From a virus (lineage: Duplodnaviria; Heunggongvirae; Uroviricota; Caudoviricetes): 64,000 bases of DNA. A model generated the notes under the pieces. The model was not told the origin of the DNA. It searched no databases and saw nothing but the letters and a program-made list of their open reading frames with translations. The stretch covers positions 75,336 through 139,335 of the IMG/VR virus record IMGVR_UViG_3300044712_002452; one strand, written 5' to 3'. Below are positions 3,404 through 61,801 of the stretch, piece after piece; position 1 is the first letter of the stretch; every line of letters begins with the position of its first letter. The position numbers and the translations under genes were made by a program.

Positions 3404-4012
3404 CTATAATAGGGTTAACAATTCGGGGTTCTCGTGAATGTTGCCGATGACTTCGGCATTTTCTTCTTTGGTCTCATTTCTATAATGCTCAAGTGTTTGC
3501 TTTAATGATTTTATGGCACCCATCAAAGAAGGTAATCTCATAGCTGCCAGTCTTCCAAGGTTAGCCAGTTCTTTATCAGTCCACTTTTTGTCAAACAATT
3601 TTTGAGGTGCGCGCTCTTGCCAAAACTTAGGTATATCCGGGTAATTCCCCGGCTTGTAGAGATACAGTCCAGCAAAAGCGGGGATCTTCTCTAGCGCTAC
3701 ATCTTTGAGGCTATCTGGCACGGCGTATGAAAAGTATTTGAGTCTGCCAAAGTATAGCTCTATGCCTGTCTTGCCGTTATAGAATACTTCGTTTATTCGT
3801 GCATGATGCTTTTTCTTAAAGTCTGCAAGCAAATCTGACCTACTTACCTTTATTTCGTAGCAATGAGCATATCCTGAATTGGTTACGGCTAGCACATCAG
3901 CCTCAAAGCTTACCAAGCCGCTTATCTCTGTTACATTTGGCACTATGATAGTAGACCTGATTTTATAGCTTCCCATGATAGCCAGCTCTATATCTAAACA
4001 ATTCACTTTCAT
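3404..4012 (-). CDS. PD-(D/E)XK nuclease-like protein
   Basis: EADVLAV...CYEIKVSRSDL matches the D...E-x-K core of the restriction-endonuclease-like fold (MmcB-like). Confidence 0.45.
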   Translation of the reverse strand: MKVNCLDIELAIMGSYKIRSTIIVPNVTEISGLVSFEADVLAVTNSGYAHCYEIKVSRSDLLADFKKKHHARINEVFYNGKTGIELYFGRLKYFSYAVPDSLKDVALEKIPAFAGLYLYKPGNYPDIPKFWQERAPQKLFDKKWTDKELANLGRLAAMRLPSLMGAIKSLKQTLEHYRNETKEENAEVIGNIHENPELLTLL

Positions 4013-4027
4013 AACTCTATTTTAGAA

Positions 4028-4453
4028 TTAACACCAATAACTGATTTTCCAATAATACCCGTTGTTTAAAGGGAAAAGTAAATACCCTGAATAATTATCT
4101 TCACAAGCCCCGGTTTTTTGCCAAACTAAACTGTGAAACTCACCATTATCATCTTGCCTCATGTAATCAATATCTTCTCCAAAAAGTACAGAATAAGAGA
4201 CATCACCTTTTATTTTGTAGAAATCGTGACTTGGATAAAAACAACTTTTATAATCTGATTTTTCAACTTGCACATAACCTTCGTGTTTCCATTCAATGCC
4301 ATCAAGTTCCATTAAATCAAAGTCGTAGTTAATATGCTTTTTTACAAATTCGATAGCTTCTTCGTTTAACTTGGCGATACGCTCATATTCGATTTTCATG
4401 GTTTGGTGAAATTCAGACAAAGCTTTTTCAACTTGTTCTTTTGTGGGTGTCAT
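4028..4453 (-). CDS. hypothetical protein
   Basis: ORF 4028..4501. The start is probably the internal Met of MTPTKEQ, which avoids a long overlap. Confidence 0.4.
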   Translation of the reverse strand: MTPTKEQVEKALSEFHQTMKIEYERIAKLNEEAIEFVKKHINYDFDLMELDGIEWKHEGYVQVEKSDYKSCFYPSHDFYKIKGDVSYSVLFGEDIDYMRQDDNGEFHSLVWQKTGACEDNYSGYLLFPLNNGYYWKISYWC

Positions 4454-4457
4454 AACT

Positions 4458-4766
4458 CTATTTTGTTTTAAACTGAGAAAAATCGAGTGTAGGGTTTGCA
4501 ATTTCTATTTCACTCTCACTTAAACGCCATTTATCTCCATTTTCATTTTGACACAAAAAACTGTTTTGTAATTCATCACAGTCAATTATTTTCACAATTT
4601 CTTCTATATCAAACCCATGTGCGCTTATACAATCTGTTACAATTACTATCATTCCGATTTCAAATTTTTTCCTTTTCTCATTCACCAATTCCAGTAGCCG
4701 ACTGAAAGATATTTGCTCACTCTCATACTCATTCAGCCATTGTCTTAGTTGTGTTGCTGTTATCAT
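4458..4766 (-). CDS. hypothetical protein (MITATQL N-terminus)
   Basis: ATG at 4766 overlaps the TGA stop of the upstream small gene (ATGA). The -1 frame stays open upstream to 4832. Confidence 0.45.
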   Translation of the reverse strand: MITATQLRQWLNEYESEQISFSRLLELVNEKRKKFEIGMIVIVTDCISAHGFDIEEIVKIIDCDELQNSFLCQNENGDKWRLSESEIEIANPTLDFSQFKTK

Positions 4767-5002
4767 TCGGATAATAGTTTGTTGTTTTGCAATATTTTTT
4801 TTCTTTCCCATCCTCCATTTGGCCTTTGACATTTACTACATTTGCATTTGCCTATAACAAATCTGCCGCATCCAATAGCGTATGTATAGCCTGCATCAAT
4901 TCTTTGTTGATACCAACCTTTATCTATCCAAGATTGCAATGTTGATGGCTTTACTATTCTTGTAGTACCTGAATAATTAACTAGTTGTGTTGCTGTTATC
5001 AT
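4746..5002 (-). repeat. 21-bp direct repeats TAGTTGTGTTGCTGTTATCAT (4746-4766 and 4982-5002) flanking the small Cys-rich gene
   Basis: Exact 21/21 match. Each copy encodes MITATQL at the start of a gene. Confidence 0.7.
4763..5002 (-). CDS. small Cys-rich zinc-ribbon-like protein, paralog A
   Basis: C-terminus WIDKGWYQQRIDAGYTYAIGCGRFVIGKCKCSKCQRPNGGWERKK. About 80% identical to the protein at 41815..42045. Start is either MITATQL (5002) or MKK (5026). Confidence 0.5.
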   Translation of the reverse strand: MITATQLVNYSGTTRIVKPSTLQSWIDKGWYQQRIDAGYTYAIGCGRFVIGKCKCSKCQRPNGGWERKKILQNNKLLSE

Positions 5003-5528
5003 TTGCTTTAGGTTTGATTTTTTCATTTACTTTTTTGATTATCGCCTCACCGAGATACTTTCGATATATCTCGGCTGTGGCTTGTCGGTTGGCATCCGCA
5101 GCCGCAGCAGCCCTCGCAGCCCACGAAGCAGCACTCGCAGCACTCGCAGTAGCCCACGAAGCAGCACTCGCAGCCCTCGCAGCCCAATCAGCAGCCGCAG
5201 TAGCCATCGTAGCCCCCCACGAAGCAGCACTCGCAGCAGCCATCGCCTCTTGCAATTCACGCTCTGTCGCTTTTCCTTCACCGTATGCTATGGCTGTATC
5301 TACGGCTTTTAGACTTCGTTCATCTTTCATTAGGTGTCTAACCGTGTTCGCAGCGTGTCCTGCGGCTAAGCATCTTAGTTGCATTGGCAGTTCTAATTTA
5401 TCTGCCAACCACCCCATCCAGTATCCTCTCTCGCACTCTTGTACTGCTTGCTCTATGGTTTTTTCGCCCACCCATTTACGGGCTTCGGAACAGGCGTTTA
5501 ATTCGGTTAGTAATTGTTGTAAATTCAT
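4977..5528 (-). CDS. hypothetical protein with Ala/Ser/Trp-rich tandem repeat
   Basis: 183 aa. Residues about 95-150 are imperfect AASAASWA repeats, encoded by 33-bp tandem DNA repeats at about 5100-5250. Confidence 0.5.
   Translation of the reverse strand: MNLQQLLTELNACSEARKWVGEKTIEQAVQECERGYWMGWLADKLELPMQLRCLAAGHAANTVRHLMKDERSLKAVDTAIAYGEGKATERELQEAMAAASAASWGATMATAAADWAARAASAASWATASAASAASWAARAAAAADANRQATAEIYRKYLGEAIIKKVNEKIKPKANDNSNTTS
5100..5250 (-). repeat. imperfect 33-bp tandem repeats (about 4 units) inside CDS 4977..5528
   Basis: Unit CACGAAGCAGCACTCGCAGC(A/C)CTCGCAG(T/C)AGCC starts at about 5122, 5155, 5185 and 5219. Confidence 0.6.
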
Positions 5529-6873: not shown

Positions 6874-7092
6874 TTAAGCCGTTGCTGCTTTTACGGCCCA
6901 CATTGCGGCTTCTTCATAAGCTGTTTGCGCCAATGATGCTAACCGACCGTCTTTTTCCTTCAATTCTTCGCAAAGGTTGATTAGTTCAGCACTTTTTTGC
7001 TTAATCTTGTCAACAACTCCATCCGAAGAAGGATTGAAAGTTGTTCTTACTCTTTGCTCGCCGATACTGTTGGCTTTAATTTTATCGCTCAT
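6874..7092 (-). CDS. hypothetical small protein
   Basis: 72 aa ORF followed (in transcript direction) by a strong terminator hairpin at 6846-6866. Confidence 0.4.
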   Translation of the reverse strand: MSDKIKANSIGEQRVRTTFNPSSDGVVDKIKQKSAELINLCEELKEKDGRLASLAQTAYEEAAMWAVKAATA

Positions 7093-37360: not shown

Positions 37361-37493
37361 CAGATATCATTACCTGTTGAGCATCTGACACAGTAAAAGT
37401 ATCAAGTTTCAAAGTAGCTATTTTGATAAACGCATCTTTAGATAATAGTTCGTACCCTGCGCTTAATAATTTGATTTTATCTCCGGTTTTCAT
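37263..37493 (-). CDS. hypothetical small protein
   Basis: 76 aa. Overlaps the upstream gene by about 98 nt, so the true start is unclear. Confidence 0.3.
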   Translation of the reverse strand: MKTGDKIKLLSAGYELLSKDAFIKIATLKLDTFTVSDAQQVMISDDNGENRRLVWEVYVEEIDDLIGLENIHWKKV

Positions 37494-37531
37494 ATCAAAT
37501 GCTTTAAAATGTGATCAAATGCCGTTGAAAA

Positions 37532-37753
37532 CTATAATTTTTCAAGCTCCGCTTTTATGGTGCACCAGTAGTTTGTCTTTTCAGAACTCTCGGCATTATC
37601 GGCTAGAAGTACTACGGCTACTAAAGCGGATTTTTTAGCAATGCTTTTATTTACCAGGTAAATATTTACCGGGTTGCCATCAGCATCAGTCGCCTCTTTT
37701 ACAAAATGTCGAAACTTATCCCGAAAAGCTATGGCTTGTTCTTTTAAAGTCAT
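37532..37753 (-). CDS. hypothetical small protein
   Basis: 73 aa ORF. Confidence 0.35.
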   Translation of the reverse strand: MTLKEQAIAFRDKFRHFVKEATDADGNPVNIYLVNKSIAKKSALVAVVLLADNAESSEKTNYWCTIKAELEKL

Positions 37754-38133
37754 ATCAGATGTTTTAGAATGTGATCAAATGCTGCGGAATAAGCTTCTTG
37801 TGGTGAATTTGGTGAGTCATAATTAGCTGCAATAACTTCCCATCTGGGAATAATAGTGTCACTTTTTTTGTGAAACTGTGTCCAAAATTCGCCTTTATAA
37901 TTTTGTTCGCATGATATAAAAATACCGTGATTAACTCTCAACCATTCAACAACTTGGTGTTGTTCAGGTATTGAGTAATAAGGTACTTCAGATTGGTAGT
38001 GATTCCAATCATAAGTATCCCAAAAAAATTCTGCATCAGGTAGACATAATGGCAAAATTGTTTCATCTCCAATTTTTGCAGATTTCTGTCTATATGCTAA
38101 CGTAGGTACATCAAATCCTTTTTCTTTAAGCAA
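37750..38133 (-). CDS. hypothetical protein
   Basis: 127 aa ORF. Confidence 0.45.
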   Translation of the reverse strand: MLKEKGFDVPTLAYRQKSAKIGDETILPLCLPDAEFFWDTYDWNHYQSEVPYYSIPEQHQVVEWLRVNHGIFISCEQNYKGEFWTQFHKKSDTIIPRWEVIAANYDSPNSPQEAYSAAFDHILKHLI

Positions 38134-39518: not shown

Positions 39519-39668
39519 ATATCTAATGTTTTGTAATCCTTTTGTGCGATTAAATCCACAAGCCTCGCAAGCATATTAAGCTCACCTTCCTTACAAAACA
39601 CTAGAACGTAAATTCCCCAATATTTAAAGGAGTCATAATTTTTTGCGCCATGTAATTTAGTTTTGGTT

Positions 39669-40187
39669 TTAAAAATCATGCGGTGTCAGCAACTTAATCC
39701 AATTATCCAATAATCTGCAGATTTCAGTTTTTGTTGCCTCATCTGTCAGGTGATGCTTTTGAAACTTTTCATATTTATCTAATAGATTTTTTGGAGCTTG
39801 TTTGTAAGTAATATGCTCATAGTAAATTAAAGTACTCTTCAAATTTCCGGTTCTTACCGAGTTCATCATACACGCTAAATCGTTTGAAATACTTTTATAT
39901 TTTTTTGAATTATTATCAAAAACTAAATAAGGTATATCATAAAGCGGTACCGATTCTTTATCAATTTTCCAAAGCTCTTTAAGTTTTTCGTCTGGTACAA
40001 ATCCCAGAATAGCAGCTCCGCCTAAACAAGCTGTACATGCCAAATTACCCTTCAGACTTAACCATGTAAGCATATAAAACTTAAAGCCGTGTTTGTCCAA
40101 CCGTTTAACGTCTTGTTTTACGGATTCCAGTAGTTCACATATGGTAAACTCTCCAATATTATCTAAAGTCATAATTCTTTGTGCCAT
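39669..40187 (-). CDS. hypothetical protein (MAQRIMTLDNIGEF N-terminus)
   Basis: 172 aa. Its first about 16 codons and 20-nt upstream region are duplicated at 39600-39668. Confidence 0.5.
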   Translation of the reverse strand: MAQRIMTLDNIGEFTICELLESVKQDVKRLDKHGFKFYMLTWLSLKGNLACTACLGGAAILGFVPDEKLKELWKIDKESVPLYDIPYLVFDNNSKKYKSISNDLACMMNSVRTGNLKSTLIYYEHITYKQAPKNLLDKYEKFQKHHLTDEATKTEICRLLDNWIKLLTPHDF

Positions 40188-40264
40188 GTAATTTGGTTTT
40201 GGTGTAAAAAAAAATATGAAACAAATGAGTTCTGTACAGTTTGCACAGAACTCATTGAAAACGA

Positions 40265-41077: not shown

Positions 41078-41821
41078 TTAACTTTTATCGATCACAATGA
41101 TTTTACCCCCTACTAAAGTTCCACTGTTTTTGAAAGCGCCTTTTTCGATATCAATAACGGTGGCGTTTAAATCGATCATTGAACTTCTGAAATCAATTTG
41201 CTTTTTTTGACTTCCAAAAGTCCAACTTTCAGAAGTAATACAAACTAACCGACCGCCATCGGCAAGACAGTTATACATCATTTTAAGATGATCAATGTCT
41301 TGGTTATTGGTGAAAGGCGGATTAGCAATGATTTTGGTGTACTTTTTACCGGCATGCTGCAAAAAATCCGCACCGATTAAGTTGAAACGCAATCCGCTTT
41401 TATTCAAAACGATTTGGTTTACATCCATCAGTTCGTAACAATCGGGTACGACATCACAAACTTTATTGATTGCTTTTATGATGGCTCCTTGGCCGGCGCT
41501 GGGTTCCAAAATGGTATCCGTAGGCTTCAAATCCGCTAATTGAACCAATTGGTCCGCCAAAAAATCGGGTGTAGCAAAAAATTGAAACTCTTTTTTCAAA
41601 TTTCTTTGTTCGCCATTGGCTATTTGGGCCAGTAAATCCGAAGGATCTTTTTGAAATACGAATCCAGCGGTTTTCCCACCTTTCCATTTACCCCCAATAA
41701 GTTCTAAAGATTTAGCCACTTCCAGGTATAACTTGCGGTCTAATTGACCCGCAGGTAGTTTTACGATAGATCCGTCTACAGTACAATTTTGCAGTACGGC
41801 TTCTTTTGTGGTCATCAGCAT
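41078..41821 (-). CDS. DNA N6-adenine methyltransferase (orphan, gamma-type motif order)
   Basis: AdoMet motif I ILEPSAGQGAI, then catalytic motif IV IIANPPF. Start MLMTTKE overlaps the stop of the upstream small gene. The -1 frame is open upstream to 41920. Confidence 0.7.
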   Translation of the reverse strand: MLMTTKEAVLQNCTVDGSIVKLPAGQLDRKLYLEVAKSLELIGGKWKGGKTAGFVFQKDPSDLLAQIANGEQRNLKKEFQFFATPDFLADQLVQLADLKPTDTILEPSAGQGAIIKAINKVCDVVPDCYELMDVNQIVLNKSGLRFNLIGADFLQHAGKKYTKIIANPPFTNNQDIDHLKMMYNCLADGGRLVCITSESWTFGSQKKQIDFRSSMIDLNATVIDIEKGAFKNSGTLVGGKIIVIDKS

Positions 41822-42045
41822 GTAATTTTGTTGTTTTGCAATACTTTTTTTCTTTCCCAGCCACCATTGGGCCGAGAGCACCGGCTGCAGGCACACGGAT
41901 CGATCGTAAACCGACCGCATCCCAGGTTATATCGATAGCCGGCGTCAATGCGCTGTTGGTACCATCCTTTGTCAATCCAAGATTGAAGGGTACATGGTTT
42001 TAGAACGCGGGTGACGCCGGCGTAATGAGTGGGAGAGTTCATCAT
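41815..42045 (-). CDS. small Cys-rich zinc-ribbon-like protein, paralog B
   Basis: WIDKGWYQQRIDAGYRYNLGCGRFTIDPCACSRCSRPNGGWERKK. Paralog of 4763..5002. Confidence 0.5.
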   Translation of the reverse strand: MMNSPTHYAGVTRVLKPCTLQSWIDKGWYQQRIDAGYRYNLGCGRFTIDPCACSRCSRPNGGWERKKVLQNNKITC

Positions 42046-42344
42046 TGTTCAAGGCTTTGGTTTTCTAAAACGGTTTGCTCTGACTCATTTTGGCTCATGT
42101 CAGAAAGCGTTTGAAAACCCATTCCACAAACCATATGAAAGCCGGTTTCATCTTCAATCACATCGCCTACGCTGGTACTACGGCATGGATTTTCCAAATT
42201 CCAGTGTAATACAAAATTTTGACTCATACGGAAAGCGTCATCTAATGATTCAGCTTCTACGGTTCCCACAAATTCACGGGGTTGATCAGCGACAGGCATA
42301 AAACGGTTTTCACCGGTGGCGTGCCAAATACGATAAGTTTTCAT
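42042..42344 (-). CDS. hypothetical protein
   Basis: 100 aa ORF. Confidence 0.4.
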   Translation of the reverse strand: MKTYRIWHATGENRFMPVADQPREFVGTVEAESLDDAFRMSQNFVLHWNLENPCRSTSVGDVIEDETGFHMVCGMGFQTLSDMSQNESEQTVLENQSLEQ

Positions 42345-42577
42345 GATTGGTGTTTTAGTGATTCAAAAAATGATTTTCCTGAAAAATTGTAATCCTTCCA
42401 GGTCCATTTTGTCTCACCGTTTATTTCAGTTTTCATGGGCAATTTGACGGTGTTGCTATATGTGCTTATCATGATAATATCGTTTCCGTCATCGAGCAAT
42501 TTTTCAACCATTTTTATAGGAAAACTACCCTGAAAAAGCATTATTGAACCGTCGGTTCGATTTAAAATCTGGTACAT
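42341..42577 (-). CDS. hypothetical small protein
   Basis: 78 aa ORF. Confidence 0.4.
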   Translation of the reverse strand: MYQILNRTDGSIMLFQGSFPIKMVEKLLDDGNDIIMISTYSNTVKLPMKTEINGETKWTWKDYNFSGKSFFESLKHQS

Positions 42578-42591
42578 AGTGAGAGTTTAGG

Positions 42592-43083
42592 TTAATACCG
42601 AAAACTGGTAAAATGGATGATTCCGCCGGTTGTTACTTTTTGTCCTACTTTAAACCAATCGGCAAAGTCGTGTAATGTGAGACCGTCGTTTTTTGCGATT
42701 TCGATCGGAGATACGTAGACTACATTTCGCGTAATTTCAGGATAAATAGATATTTTATCATGGCTCATCCCGTATTCGTCGATTCTAACCCGTTGAATTC
42801 CGATGTCGTGCTCTTTTGTTAAGCGCTCAATTTCGAACTGAGGTGAATTATACGGAGCGCCCGACCACTGGCGGAGGGATATTTCGGCCAGGCCTTTTCG
42901 CACTTCAATAATGCGTTTCCGCCAAAGTTCATAGTTTTCCCGGATCGTGTGAATTTTTTCACGGCGCGCAATTTTCTCCGCGAAATACGTGGGATTGCCA
43001 GCTTGAGAGTGTTTAGTTGGGAATTTTTTTGATATAATTAGAACAAATGTTTTCATGATTGGTGTTTTAATAGTGAACTCCAC
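42592..43083 (-). CDS. hypothetical protein
   Basis: 163 aa ORF. Confidence 0.45.
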   Translation of the reverse strand: MEFTIKTPIMKTFVLIISKKFPTKHSQAGNPTYFAEKIARREKIHTIRENYELWRKRIIEVRKGLAEISLRQWSGAPYNSPQFEIERLTKEHDIGIQRVRIDEYGMSHDKISIYPEITRNVVYVSPIEIAKNDGLTLHDFADWFKVGQKVTTGGIIHFTSFRY

Positions 43084-46268: not shown

Positions 46269-46304
46269 AGCTTTTACAATTTAAAATGATAAATAAAAGA
46301 GTAC

Positions 46305-46320
46305 GGACCTTATTCTTTAA
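46305..46320 (-). promoter_or_regulatory. GACCTTATTCTTTAA motif, copy 1 of 4
   Basis: 37 nt upstream (in the minus sense) of the gene whose start is 46268. Other copies at 46531-46546, 47675-47690 and 48168-48180. Confidence 0.4.
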
Positions 46321-46645
46321 TTTTTCGAAGAAAAATTAGAGAAGAAAATACGGCGAACGATCCCGTAACAAATGTGCTCTCCAGCCCGGTGTTCTGTTCA
46401 CCCAAAACATAAAGCTCCCCTTTTTAGCTCACGCCTGCCGGAGCACAACACACAGATACGCTCAGTTTACTCACGATCACACCGCTCGCGGTGTACGTTA
46501 GTTTCTCACTAAAGCGTTACTACAGAACAAGAACCTTATTCTTTAAACTTACAACGTAAGTTTAGTGGAGAATCTGTGTGAACGATCGGAGTGTGGGTTG
46601 AGGTAAAGAAACGCCCCGAATGGTTAGTTCGGAGCGTTTGGGTGA

Positions 46646-47654: not shown

Positions 47655-47769
47655 AACTGTGTATTTTAGTGTGCGACCCTTATTCTTTAAGCAGCAACTT
47701 GTTGCGCTTAGTTGAAACCCAGCGATTAAAAAACATTGCACTGTATCACTACAATGCAATGTGCTTGGA

Positions 47770-48051: not shown

Positions 48052-48454
48052 AGCATTACGCTTTATCCCACTGCAGGGCTTCGGCTAATAGCACCAAAAC
48101 GCCGTACATAAAGACGTACTTTTTCATTGTACTCTTCATTTAAGTGAAACAATACGAACCTGTCAACGACCTTATTCTTTCAAGGCTCAACTTGTTGAGA
48201 CTTGAGTTACAGACATTGACCATAACTTTCCTAAAAAATCCTAAGCATTTGGTTTTCCCGGCAAACGGGCGCACGATTGGTTTGAAGGGTAGGGGGTAGG
48301 CCCCAAACATTTTTACCCCGGGGGGCTTTTTACTAGGTACCCCACACTGACTGGGGATTACAAAATTTTTCGGGGTAAAATTTTTTTTGGGGTGGTGAAA
48401 TAAAAAAGAGCTTCTTTTTGGGAAGCCCTTTTTCGGTGGTTGGTTTTCAGTTGA

Positions 48455-53668: not shown

Positions 53669-53705
53669 AAGTCCAATGAGCCTTATATACTAAGGATTAA
53701 CCATT

Positions 53706-53720
53706 AATCCTTATCCTATG
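53706..53720 (+). promoter_or_regulatory. late-gene start-context motif AATCCTTATCCTATG
   Basis: The same motif abuts the ATG of terL (53718), the portal gene (55958, ATATCCTATG), the capsid gene (60176) and the gene at 63812. Confidence 0.45.
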
Positions 53721-60123: not shown

Positions 60124-60175
60124 TCTGAAAACCTATGAAAAATTATATTAATCAATAATCCTTAATCCTTATCCT

Positions 60176-61801
60176 ATGGCAACTCCCGTTCTTAATAACG
60201 GTATTTTCTTGCGGGAAGTTTCTTACGAAACTACCGCCCATGTGGATTCTTATCACCTCTACAACCTCATCGGGAAAGATGCCATGACGGATCTGGGTCC
60301 GGTAGAGTTGTTTGCCCACGCGCAAAAGGTAGAAATACCTTTGTATCAGATGGCAAGCTTTGGCGGTAAGAATGTCATCATGGTTCAAAACAGTCGTGGT
60401 GAATTCAAATGGGATATTCCCATTCTGCAAGATTTGCCAACGTTCATGGAAGACATCGAACCCGGTAACACCGAAAAGGGTCGTGATGGTAGCACCTTCA
60501 AAGTGAAAGTAAGCCGTCGGGCCTTCTCTCACGGAGATGTGTTTTCTTATGACAAATACAACGGTGTCGAAATTTACATCACCGATGAAGACATCCTGGA
60601 TGGTGGTGATAAAGCCGTGATTTACACGTGTCGCTTGGTCAACAACGACAACGCGAAGTTTCTGGACAACAAGTACATCAAGCATGGTACCAAGTTGTTC
60701 CGTAAGACTTCTGCCAAATCCGGCGAGTACGGTGAGAAGTTCTCTGATTTGGGTAACCAAACGGCCGGACACCGTGAGTACTACAACTATGTAGGGGGTG
60801 CCGAAGCACACTGTCATTTCCATATTTCGTCTAAGGCGGATATGATGGCAAAAGGTGGTTTGCTCAACAATGGCCGGGTGCCGGTAACGGAACTCTGGCG
60901 TTCATTCGACAGCAACTTGGATCCTTCCATCCGCAGCTTGGATGAAATGGCCAAAAAAATGGGTAAGGACTACATGAAAAAGTCTTACGAAAAAGGTACT
61001 CTGGTACGCAATTTCGTGACCACCATCGAATCCAAGTGTATTCAAAAAGTCGCCAACGACATCGAAAGTTACGCGATGTGGGGTCATGGTGGTCGTCTGC
61101 GTCAAGACGGGCCTGATGATTTCCGTTTGAGCGTAGGTCTTTGGAAGCAATTGGATAACGCCTGGAAGAAGAAGTATAACAAAGGTGCTTTCACCATGGA
61201 CTTCTTCAAGGGTGAAATTTTCAACTTCTTCGCAGGTCGCGTAAGTTTTGAAGGTCCGGATCCTAAGCGTAAACTGATCGTTCAAACCGGTATAGCGGGT
61301 ATGCGCGTAGTAAGTGCTGCCATCGAGCGTTATGCATTCGCTTCCAATCTGGTGATGAATGCTACGGAGCTGGGTGCGATCACCGGTAAGGGTATGAACC
61401 TAGACTTCGGTTTTGCGTTCACTTCTTTCACCATTCCGTATCTGGCAAACGTTCAGTTCGTATTGAACCCTGCTTTTGACAGCGTTCATACCAACGATAT
61501 TGAAAACCCGATCATTGACGGTCATCCGCTGAGCTCTTACAGCTTTGTGATCTTTGACGTTACCGATCAAGGTTCTGACAATATCTTCTTGCTCAAATGG
61601 GCGCATGACCATGAATTGAAGTGGTTCTACCAAAATGGTACCATGGACTACATGGGTCGTTCAACCGGATTTGCATCTACCGGCCTGTTCTCAGGTTACA
61701 AGGTGTATATGCAACAAACCATGCCGGCCATTTGGGTTAAAGACCCAACTCGCGTGTTGAAGATCGTGATGACCAATCCGATCACAGGCGGTTCACTGTA
61801 A
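60176..61801 (+). CDS. major capsid protein candidate
   Basis: 541 aa. Highly-expressed-gene codon bias (GGT/CGT/AAG). Followed by the strongest terminator in the window. Confidence 0.55.
   Translation: MATPVLNNGIFLREVSYETTAHVDSYHLYNLIGKDAMTDLGPVELFAHAQKVEIPLYQMASFGGKNVIMVQNSRGEFKWDIPILQDLPTFMEDIEPGNTEKGRDGSTFKVKVSRRAFSHGDVFSYDKYNGVEIYITDEDILDGGDKAVIYTCRLVNNDNAKFLDNKYIKHGTKLFRKTSAKSGEYGEKFSDLGNQTAGHREYYNYVGGAEAHCHFHISSKADMMAKGGLLNNGRVPVTELWRSFDSNLDPSIRSLDEMAKKMGKDYMKKSYEKGTLVRNFVTTIESKCIQKVANDIESYAMWGHGGRLRQDGPDDFRLSVGLWKQLDNAWKKKYNKGAFTMDFFKGEIFNFFAGRVSFEGPDPKRKLIVQTGIAGMRVVSAAIERYAFASNLVMNATELGAITGKGMNLDFGFAFTSFTIPYLANVQFVLNPAFDSVHTNDIENPIIDGHPLSSYSFVIFDVTDQGSDNIFLLKWAHDHELKWFYQNGTMDYMGRSTGFASTGLFSGYKVYMQQTMPAIWVKDPTRVLKIVMTNPITGGSL

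What the first reader, a model, noticed from the sequence alone, without database searches (positions are those of the whole stretch)
4746..5002. Exact 21-bp direct repeats, each encoding MITATQL, flank the small Cys-rich gene: insertion or gene-cassette signature
ATGATAACAGCAACACAACTA occurs at the start of the Cys-rich gene and again at the start of the next gene 236 bp downstream. The pattern fits insertion of the small gene just after codon 7 of a pre-existing gene with duplication of the target. It also fits recombination between the two paralogous loci; locus 2 lacks the repeat.
Basis: seen in the sequence. Interest (0 to 1): 0.6.

Follow-up and report, generated by a model that had tools for sequence, protein, structure and literature searches.

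The report
Duplicated gene start marks gene insertion
A small cysteine-rich gene was spliced into a phage genome just after the seventh codon of a resident gene, copying 22 bases of that gene's start, and similar start-codon-spanning repeats flank other small genes in this and other phage contigs.

Summary
The exact repeat is 22 nt, not 21: AATGATAACAGCAACACAACTA at 5003..4982 and 4767..4746, minus strand, with no matches in shuffled sequence.

It is an insertion scar:
- Both homologues found for the downstream 102-aa gene begin MITATQLRQW.
- None of about 35 Cys-rich family members inspected begins that way.
- One related contig (L046) has the empty site: the upstream gene's homologue abuts a single copy of the 22-mer and the MITATQL gene.
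- The 214-nt insert has no start or stop codon of its own. It uses the ATG of the left copy and the TGA (in ATGA) of the right copy.

It lacks inverted ends, a transposase and room for a promoter, so it is not a transposon or moron. It is not a recent copy of the paralogue at 42045..41815 (67% nt identity, GC 34% vs 50%).

The signature recurs. Two more exact pairs (21 and 15 nt) and two degraded pairs lie in this window. L045 has a 20-nt pair and L052 a 57-nt pair. In 394 kb of phage DNA, 13 of 48 isolated repeats span start codons in both copies.

Most likely mechanism: low-homology recombination or template switching, filtered by selection for intact start regions. This resembles PeSL-type shuffling but is not a member. 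Interest is moderate.

The parts
4982..5003 (-). Repeat R1, upstream copy (AATGATAACAGCAACACAACTA). It supplies the ATG and the first 7 codons (MITATQL) of the Cys-rich ORF. It also encodes part of the C-terminal tail of the 183-aa gene in another frame.
4746..4767 (-). Repeat R1, downstream copy. It holds the native start (MITATQL) of the 102-aa gene. Its ATGA supplies the in-frame TGA stop of the Cys-rich ORF.
   Evidence: single homologous copy in L046 1410-1431
4768..4981 (-). Inserted segment, 214 nt. It is the body of the Cys-rich ORF (VNYSGTTRIV...NNKLLSE) with no start codon, no stop codon and no non-coding DNA of its own. It is absent from L046 and L045.
4763..5002 (-). Cys-rich ORF cys1, 79 aa. 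The family has four invariant Cys in CGRF-x4-C-x-C-x2-C. The borrowed residues 1-11 are predicted to be disordered.
4458..4766 (-). Resident 102-aa gene (MITATQLRQWLNEYE...). This is the target gene whose start region was duplicated.
4977..5528 (-). Upstream 183-aa gene with Ala-rich tandem repeats. Its tail reads through R1 copy 1 into the insert and stops at TAA 4979..4977. In L046 its homologue stops at the TGA of the ATGA junction.
41815..42045 (-). Paralogue cys2, 76 aa, immediately upstream of a DNA methyltransferase gene. It is an old paralogue, not the donor.
43049..43069 (-). Repeat R2, upstream copy (TAAAACACCAATCATGAAAAC). It covers the translation-start region and ATG (MKT) of the 154-aa gene 43056..42592.
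42337..42357 (-). Repeat R2, downstream copy. It covers the last codons and TGA of the 78-aa gene, and the ATGA-overlapped start (MKT) of the 100-aa gene 42344..42042. It shows the same signature as R1, 712 nt from its partner.
4450..4464 (-). Repeat R3, upstream copy (AAAATAGAGTTATGA). It is the stop-start junction between the 102-aa gene and the 141-aa gene.
4009..4023 (-). Repeat R3, downstream copy. It is the junction between the 141-aa gene and the 202-aa gene. The same TAGAGTTATGA junction occurs three times in L045.
37490..37529 (-). Older, degraded example, downstream copy (40 nt, 85% identical to 37750-37789). It is a relic of the upstream gene's last 10 codons plus ATGA, and now serves as the leader of the MKTGDK... 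gene.
37750..37789 (-). Older example, upstream copy. It covers the C-terminal codons (AFDHILKHLI*) of the upstream gene plus the ATGA that starts the 73-aa gene 37753..37532.

Best explanation
The 22-nt direct repeat is the scar of a duplicative insertion in the early-gene, small-ORF region of a 139-kb tailed phage.

Shown: the ancestral arrangement (183-aa gene, then the ATGA junction, then the MITATQL gene) survives in a relative. In the window lineage, 214 nt encoding the body of a foreign Cys-rich ORF lies between two copies of the 22 nt that span position -1 to +21 of the resident gene. The incoming ORF lost its own first few codons. It is now read from the resident ATG plus 7 codons in the left copy, and it ends at the TGA of the ATGA in the right copy. 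The resident gene keeps an intact start.

Inferred: the event came from general, low-homology recombination or replication template switching between co-infecting phage genomes. One version is a single step: the polymerase leaves the recipient template just past the start codon and re-enters upstream of it. Another version has two steps: in-frame replacement of the gene body, then unequal crossing-over between the two alleles. In this dense, translationally coupled gene array, only products that leave both genes with a complete start region survive. That is why the duplication spans a start codon.

No dedicated enzyme or autonomous element is needed. The two identical copies 236 nt apart should allow occasional precise loss of the gene by homologous recombination.
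For: - Exact 22-nt repeat with 0 matches in 100 shuffles.
- Both homologues found for the downstream gene begin MITATQLRQWLNEYE.
- Cys-rich family members (11 aligned, 26 more inspected, 48 clusters in all) have short, unrelated N-termini. The conserved core starts at Y/F-x-G-(S/T)-x-R.
- The AF2 model puts residues 1-11 below pLDDT 50 and the rest at 80-92.
- Empty site: in L046 the window's left flank aligns up to L046 1431 and the right flank restarts at L046 1410, so both copies map to one 22-mer.
- Both window copies carry A where L046 and L045 carry G (GCA vs GCG). This fits duplication within the window lineage.
- The insert is entirely coding and has no ATG or stop of its own.
- The same DNA is found in an independently made Logan assembly, 100% identical over 5.7 kb.
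- The signature recurs with varying length and register. In the window: R2 21 nt, R3 15 nt, and two degraded pairs of 40 and 68 nt. In L045: a 20-nt pair sharing MREI with a true YopX gene. In L052: a 57-nt pair.
- Same-register start matches of at least 15 nt occur in 5 of 247 neighbouring gene pairs and 1 of 3068 distant pairs. One of the 5 is a shared late-gene leader, not a cassette repeat.
- 13 of 48 isolated repeats span ORF starts in both copies. The same test with other triplets gives a mean of 1.15.
- In-frame body replacement is documented next door. The window's 202-aa gene keeps only a YopX C-terminal tail.
Against: - The donor of the insert was not found. The best DNA identity is 70-74%, so microhomology at the two joints cannot be checked.
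- Only one empty-site relative exists, and it is divergent (72% nt upstream, 93% downstream).
- Polarity rests on family N-termini and parsimony, not on a rooted phylogeny.
- No empty site could be found for R2 or the other pairs.
- The insert corresponds almost exactly to an ORF body, in frame at both ends. That is improbable for a single random event unless selection or junction microhomology is invoked.
- The survey loci were not a random sample of phages.
Confidence: 0.75

Rival explanations
1. Short-homology cassette shuffling of the PeSL type. The Cys-rich ORF already carried one copy of the 22-mer on a small circle or an ends-in fragment excised from another genome with the same arrangement. 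It entered by a single homologous crossover at the resident 22-mer (Campbell-type). The repeats are therefore recombination linkers, not a de novo target duplication.
For: - In T4-type phages, ORFan cassettes flanked by repeated PeSL elements excise as mini-circles. There the crossovers map between the -10 box and the ATG, and the relative has a single element at the empty site (PMC2839356).
- An 11-nt junction TAGAGTTATGA is reused at 2 junctions in the window and 3 in L045.
- Phage recombinases act on short or diverged homology (PMC3945230, listed; title and abstract only).
Against: - This explains spread but not the origin of the MITATQL-Cys fusion.
- Each repeat pair is unique in sequence. 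R1, R2, the 40-nt pair and the L052 57-mer share no consensus.
- The repeats are coding or start-region DNA, not promoter plus stem-loop.
- No other genome carrying MITATQL fused to a Cys-rich ORF was found.
Confidence: 0.15
2. A dedicated, enzyme-driven insertion system places start-less ORF cassettes at stop-start junctions and generates the duplication. Candidates are a transposase, an integrase, or a nuclease making staggered cuts.
For: - The signature recurs in this genome and in unrelated phage contigs.
- R1, R2 and the L045 pair are similar in length (22, 21, 20 nt).
Against: - Across all cases, repeat length ranges from 15 to 68 nt. The offset from the ATG ranges from -54..+3 to -1..+21.
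- There are no terminal inverted repeats and no conserved motif at insert ends.
- 22 nt is longer than the target duplications I know for transposons (own knowledge).
Confidence: 0.07
3. The filled arrangement is ancestral, and L046 (with L045) lost the Cys-rich gene by recombination between the repeats. On this view the 'empty site' is a deletion product, not the pre-insertion state.
For: Recombination between 22-nt exact repeats would give exactly the L046 structure.
Against: - An earlier insertion is still needed to explain why a Cys-rich ORF carries another gene family's N-terminus.
- Both window copies share a base (A) that differs from L046 and L045 (G).
- The copies are 100% identical while the flanks are 7-28% diverged from L046. 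This argues for a recent event in the window lineage.
Confidence: 0.1
4. The repeat is not a scar. It is a functional element kept identical by selection, for example a shared translational operator or start region. Alternatively, it is an assembly artefact that placed two alleles in tandem.
For: - Both copies sit at translation starts, so co-regulation is conceivable.
- Metagenome assemblers can mis-join variants that share k-mers.
Against: - The empty site, together with the N-terminus being foreign to the Cys-rich family, shows common descent by duplication.
- The same sequence was recovered in JGI contigs and in a Logan assembly.
- A tandem join needs reads linking the end of the Cys-rich ORF to the 22-mer.
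Confidence: 0.04
5. Ectopic recombination between the two paralogous Cys-rich loci within this genome created locus 1.
For: The two loci share a 67-nt stretch at 81% identity at the 3' end. cys2 is marginally the closest known protein relative (74-77% aa).
Against: - Overall DNA identity is 67%, and third-position identity is 42%.
- GC content is 34% vs 50%.
- The N-terminal regions and the flanking genes are unrelated.
Confidence: 0.03

Closest known systems
PeSL-mediated modular shuffling of ORFan cassettes in T4-type phages (Arbiol et al. 2010, PMC2839356)
   Same: - Small genes of unknown function lie in a variable region and are flanked by direct repeats.
- A close relative carries one repeat copy at the empty site.
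- Crossovers fall next to the ATG.
- Precise excision is predicted to be reversible.
   Different: - PeSLs are roughly 100-nt intergenic promoter-plus-stem-loop elements, with about 50 related copies per genome.
- Here each pair is unique and 15-57 nt long. It spans the start codon and coding sequence.
- The cassette brings no promoter, terminator, start or stop.
Illegitimate or relaxed homologous recombination as the source of phage mosaicism. The Hendrix/Pedulla model is from my own knowledge. For Rad52-like recombinases: De Paepe et al. 2014, PMC3945230.
   Same: - The joints are at or near gene boundaries.
- Selection removes non-viable products.
- In-frame replacement of gene bodies is seen (202-aa gene vs YopX).
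   Different: As far as I know, that literature describes replacement joints. It does not describe a duplication of the resident start region that donates a start codon and a stop codon to an incoming ORF fragment.
Morons (own knowledge: Juhala/Hendrix 2000)
   Same: An extra gene is inserted between two genes that are adjacent in a relative.
   Different: A moron carries its own promoter and terminator. This insert is 214 nt of pure coding sequence and depends on the resident start region.
Target-site duplication by transposable elements
   Same: Exact direct repeats of target sequence flank the inserted DNA, and the empty site has one copy.
   Different: - There are no inverted ends and no transposase.
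- 22 nt is far longer than the transposon target duplications I know.
- Length varies among the analogous cases.
Campbell-type or 'ends-in' integration and integron cassettes
   Same: A single crossover of a circle carrying one copy of a short site would give a repeat-cassette-repeat structure. The cassettes are promoterless and depend on their context for expression.
   Different: No attC-like structure, integrase or common site is present. The 'site' is a different piece of resident gene start at each locus.

Membership tests
Transposable element (IS / MITE) | Terminal inverted repeats at the ends of the insert | tested here: not met
   An inverted-repeat search of 4650-5100 finds no pair at the insert ends.
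Transposable element (IS / MITE) | Encoded transposase, or family copies elsewhere that could be mobilised in trans | tested here: not met
   - The only ORF is the 79-aa Cys-rich protein.
- It has no Pfam match above the curated cut-off and no PHROG match.
- The only other copy in the window is 67% identical.
Transposable element (IS / MITE) | Short target duplication of fixed length | tested here: not met
   The repeat here is 22 nt. Analogous pairs are 15, 20, 21, 40, 57 and 68 nt.
Moron | Own promoter and terminator flanking the inserted gene | tested here: not met
   The insert is 214 nt of uninterrupted coding sequence. The promoter/terminator scan gives no excess over shuffles. That scan covers the sigma-70 consensus only.
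PeSL-type cassette (T4-type phages) | Cassette flanked by direct repeats, with a single repeat at the empty site of a relative | tested here: met
PeSL-type cassette (T4-type phages) | The repeat is an intergenic early promoter plus stem-loop, belonging to a genome-wide family | tested here: not met
   - The repeat is the start codon plus 6 codons.
- It occurs only twice in the window, even at 3 mismatches.
- The other pairs share no consensus with it.
- For the PeSL definition, see PMC2839356.
PeSL-type cassette (T4-type phages) | Excised mini-circles during infection | not testable with these tools
   This needs inverse PCR or read-level data.
Site-specific integration (att core duplication) | Integrase or recombinase acting on a defined core, with the same core at all sites | tested here: inconclusive
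   The cores differ at every pair. The window was not exhaustively screened for recombinase genes.
Integron gene cassette | attC recombination site (imperfect inverted repeats) at the 3' end of the cassette | tested here: not met
   There is no non-coding 3' segment and no inverted repeat at the cassette end.
Tandem gene duplication (paralogous neighbours) | Homology between the two flanked genes beyond the repeat | tested here: not met
   BLASTP finds only the 7 identical N-terminal residues. The 60-nt flanks of the repeat are 43% and 20% identical.
Homing endonuclease gene | Endonuclease domain (LAGLIDADG, GIY-YIG, HNH, and others) | tested here: not met
   No such domain is found in the 79-aa protein.

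The most novel reading that the evidence does not exclude
Start-codon-spanning duplications may be the footprint of a widespread and so far unnamed mode of gene gain in phages. In this mode, ORF bodies without their own start or stop are plugged in at stop-start (ATGA-type) junctions. The duplicated junction acts as a universal adaptor: it gives the newcomer a start on the left and a stop on the right, and the result is reversible by recombination between the copies. This could be driven by a specific replication or recombination activity of these phages rather than by random events plus selection.
Probability: 0.15. Interest if true: 0.75.

Novelty: new variant of a known kind. Interest (0 to 1): 0.42.

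Why it matters
How phages gain their many small genes of unknown function is usually inferred from blurred mosaic joints. Here both joints of one recent event are preserved to the base, and an empty site exists in a relative. The newcomer is expressed only by borrowing the resident gene's start codon and first seven codons, and the next start's ATGA as its stop. The same footprint appears at several other junctions in this genome. It also appears in unrelated phage contigs (13 of 48 isolated short repeats in about 394 kb). This gives a simple, searchable marker for recent gene gain. It also predicts reversible loss, and it warns annotators that the first few residues of small phage proteins may be borrowed. 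It does not reveal a new type of mobile element.

Tried and rejected
- DNA and protein searches of the 3-kb region and of the Cys-rich protein against 50,697 deposited phage genomes found no match.
- Scans of IMG/VR for the 102-aa, 100-aa and 154-aa genes and for the 22-mer pattern found nothing.
- The metagenome scan for the 22-mer pattern returned only the L046 contig again.
- GTDB genome scans with the 102-aa family and the Cys-rich family found nothing.
- The upstream 183-aa gene has many IMG/VR relatives, often several copies per contig. None is syntenic with the window.
- I looked for an empty site for the second repeat pair through homologues of the 100-aa gene. Those contigs are not syntenic.
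- I considered programmed -1 frameshifting on the A_AAA_AAA run shared by both Cys-rich genes, which would fuse each to its downstream gene. It does not generalise. In L004 the -1 frame stops after a few codons, and L002 has no A run.
- I rejected the transposon, moron, integron, homing endonuclease and tandem paralogue readings (see the membership test).
- Literature searches for a named description of start-region duplications flanking phage gene insertions found only the PeSL work and general papers on mosaicism.

Full report
**Observation.** All genes around the finding lie on the minus strand. The 21-mer ATGATAACAGCAACACAACTA occurs exactly twice in the 64-kb window, at 4746-4766 and 4982-5002. 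There are no further matches at up to three mismatches and none in 100 shuffles. The exact repeat is 22 nt, 4746-4767 and 4982-5003, because the A before each ATG is shared. The upstream copy opens a 79-aa Cys-rich ORF (5002..4763). The downstream copy opens a 102-aa ORF (4766..4458). The first ORF's TGA overlaps the second ORF's ATG as ATGA. A 183-aa gene (5528..4977) ends 26 nt inside the Cys-rich ORF. The two flanked proteins share only MITATQL.

**Whose N-terminus is it?** The only two homologues of the 102-aa protein in the 5.8-billion-protein collection both begin MITATQLRQWLNEYE.EQISFSRLLELVNE. The Cys-rich family has 12 clusters in the word-indexed search and 48 clusters at 50% identity in the exhaustive search. 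Its members have short, unrelated N-termini, and conservation starts at Y/F-x-G-(S/T)-x-R-I. An AlphaFold model (mean pLDDT 80) leaves residues 1-11 below pLDDT 50. MITATQL therefore belongs to the downstream gene and was acquired by the Cys-rich ORF.

**Empty site.** Contig L046 (NCBI JACCDR012505785.1) carries a homologue of the 183-aa gene (57% aa). An ATGA overlap joins it directly to a MITATQL gene.
- In BLASTN, the window's left flank aligns to L046 up to base 1431, which corresponds to window 4982.
- The right flank restarts at L046 1410, which corresponds to window 4767.
- Both window copies therefore map onto one 22-mer, AATGATAACAGCGACACAACTA.
- The window has an extra 214 nt (4981..4768). 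This segment is pure ORF body, with no start or stop of its own.
- Both window copies have A where L046 and L045 have G. They are 100% identical to each other, while the flanks differ from L046 by 7-28%. The duplication therefore looks recent and specific to the window lineage.
- The same sequence was recovered in a Logan assembly, 100% identical over 5.7 kb, and the exact Cys-rich protein is on record in two JGI contigs. An assembly artefact is therefore unlikely.

**What it is not.**
- There are no inverted repeats at the insert ends.
- Promoter and terminator matches do not exceed chance, and the insert has no non-coding room for them.
- The 79-aa protein has no nuclease or recombinase domain and no fold match.
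- It is not a recent copy of the paralogue at 42045..41815. DNA identity is 67%, third-position identity is 42%, and GC is 34% vs 50%.
- No close donor was found. The best DNA identity is 70-74%.

**The region is a hot spot of in-frame cassette change.**
- In L045 the 183-aa gene is absent. A 27-codon hydrophobic mini-ORF sits at the same boundary, between AAGCAAATGAT and AAGCCAAATGAT, and it uses the resident ATGAT.
- The window's 202-aa gene (4012..3404) matches the YopX profile only over its last 21 residues. L045 has a complete YopX gene at the corresponding place, and the two share their last 60 nt or so at 89% identity.
- The 102-aa family itself differs among the three relatives by whole internal domains.

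**The signature recurs.**
- In the window, the next two longest local exact repeats outside the intragenic tandem repeats also span start codons of nearby genes in the same register.
  - R2 is 21 nt at 43069..43049 and 42357..42337. It encloses a 154-aa gene and a 78-aa gene. The 154-aa gene takes its ATG from the left copy. The 78-aa gene takes its last codons and its stop from the right copy.
  - R3 is 15 nt at 4464..4450 and 4023..4009, with the sequence AAAATAGAGTTATGA.
- Two degraded pairs look like older events: 40 nt at 85% identity and 68 nt at 81% identity.
- In L045, a 20-nt exact pair (TAGAGTTATGAGAGAGATAA) flanks a 67-aa ORF that shares MREI with the YopX gene and has no start or stop of its own.
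- In the unrelated L052, a 57-nt exact pair flanks a 90-aa gene inserted right after the ATG of a Cys-rich family member.
- Same-register matches of at least 15 nt around start codons occur in 5 of 247 neighbouring gene pairs and in 1 of 3068 distant pairs. One of the five is a shared leader of two structural genes, not a cassette repeat.
- In about 394 kb of window plus non-redundant loci, 13 of 48 isolated exact repeats of at least 15 nt contain an ATG that opens an ORF in both copies. The same test with other triplets gives a mean of 1.15.
- Repeat length ranges from 15 to 68 nt. The offset from the ATG varies from -54..+3 to -1..+21.

**Mechanism.**
- Shown: a duplicative insertion after codon 7 of the resident gene, with the incoming ORF using the resident start and the next ATGA as its stop.
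- Inferred: the event arose by low-homology recombination or template switching between co-infecting genomes. It could have been a single step. It could also have been an in-frame body replacement followed by unequal crossing-over between the two alleles.
- Inferred: selection in a densely packed, ATGA-coupled gene array keeps only products in which both genes retain a complete start region. This explains why the duplications span start codons while their lengths and offsets vary.
- A PeSL-like route (a circle or ends-in fragment carrying one repeat copy) could spread such cassettes but does not explain the first fusion (PMC2839356).
- A dedicated enzyme is disfavoured by the variable lengths, the lack of a shared motif and the lack of an associated gene.

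**Comparison and novelty.** The closest described system is PeSL-mediated ORFan shuffling in T4-type phages. The flanking-repeat and empty-site features are met. The defining promoter-plus-stem-loop repeat family is not, so this is not a member. It also fails the tests for transposon, moron, integron cassette, homing endonuclease gene and tandem paralogue. I rate it a new variant of a known kind, namely recombinational cassette gain in phage variable regions. It is unusually clean, and it reuses a resident start and stop in a way I did not find described. Interest is moderate. A specialist would find it neat and useful as a marker, not startling.

**Context.** The window comes from a 139-kb tailed-phage contig that encodes terminase, portal, major head protein, DNA polymerase, primase and helicases. 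The Cys-rich family is a rare phage-only family with four invariant cysteines. In 4 of about 10 distinct contexts it lies just upstream of a DNA methyltransferase gene.

Noticed in passing
window 43049-43069 and 42337-42357 (minus strand): A second exact direct repeat (21 nt, TAAAACACCAATCATGAAAAC; about 29 nt allowing a 2-nt indel) spans the starts of the 154-aa and 100-aa genes. It encloses two genes just upstream of the paralogous Cys-rich locus. The enclosed block takes its first ATG and its last stop from the repeat copies.
   Followed up: partly
window 4450-4464 and 4009-4023; L045 960, 1160, 1563: The stop-start junction TAGAGTTATGA (TAG, AGTT, ATG, A) is reused at two consecutive junctions in the window and three in L045. 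It has stops in two frames and a start in the third, so it behaves like a universal adaptor. Similar AAAGTTATGA junction pairs occur in L027 and L029.
   Followed up: partly
window 3404-4012 (minus strand) vs L045 1167-1565: The 202-aa protein matches PHROG families of unknown function (phrog_2776) and, weakly, a 'DNA repair protein' PHROG. It matches the YopX profile only in its last 21 residues. L045 has a full YopX gene there with the same 3' end. This is an in-frame replacement of a gene body that kept the resident tail.
   Followed up: partly
window 4795-4802 and 41845-41851 (minus strand): Both Cys-rich genes contain an A8 or A7 run (A_AAA_AAA in frame, within ERKK). In both loci the -1 frame stays open into the downstream gene (the 102-aa gene and the methyltransferase). 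A -1 frameshift would therefore fuse them. This is not conserved in homologues (L004 hits a stop; L002 has no run).
   Followed up: partly
window 41078-41824; L002 5361-6089; L049 3611-4794; L053 663-1487: Cys-rich family genes lie immediately upstream, or within about 0.5 kb upstream, of DNA methyltransferase genes of different classes in 4 of about 10 contexts. This may indicate a functional link, such as a regulator or partner. In L054 the neighbour is a TnpB-like gene.
   Followed up: partly
window 4977-5528 (tandem repeats at 5089-5256); L009-L044: The 183-aa gene has Ala-rich tandem repeats with periods of 9, 12, 21 and 33 nt, and it is GC-rich (50% vs 40% for the window). Its family is widespread in IMG/VR phage contigs, often with 2-4 copies per contig and with variable repeat tracts.
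   Followed up: partly
window 39608-39675 and 40144-40211 (minus strand): A 68-nt repeat at 81% identity covers the leader plus the first 15 codons of a 172-aa gene (MAQRIMTLDNIGEFT...). The downstream copy is now only a 16-codon remnant (MAQKIMTPLNIGEFTF*).
   Followed up: partly
window 53686-53720 and 60144-60178 (plus strand): The terminase and major head protein genes share a 17-nt leader ending at the ATG (TTAATCCTTATCCTATG). The portal gene shares a 10-nt stretch with the terminase leader. This is probably a late-gene leader or regulatory motif, not an insertion scar.
   Followed up: no
L052 2594-2650 and 2920-2976: A 57-nt exact direct repeat flanks a 90-aa gene. It consists of the last 18 codons of the upstream gene through to the ATG. 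The 90-aa gene was inserted right after the start codon of a Cys-rich family member in an unrelated phage contig.
   Followed up: partly
window 6874-7092 (minus strand): The 72-aa protein carries a precomputed Pfam Acb2_Tad1_hairpin hit, a family I recall as anti-CBASS/Thoeris nucleotide sponges. It lies in the same small-gene array.
   Followed up: no
window 46298-46346, 46524-46572, 47668-47690, 48164-48183: A motif around TTAAAGAATAAGGT (minus strand) recurs four times within 2 kb. It may be a regulatory element.
   Followed up: no
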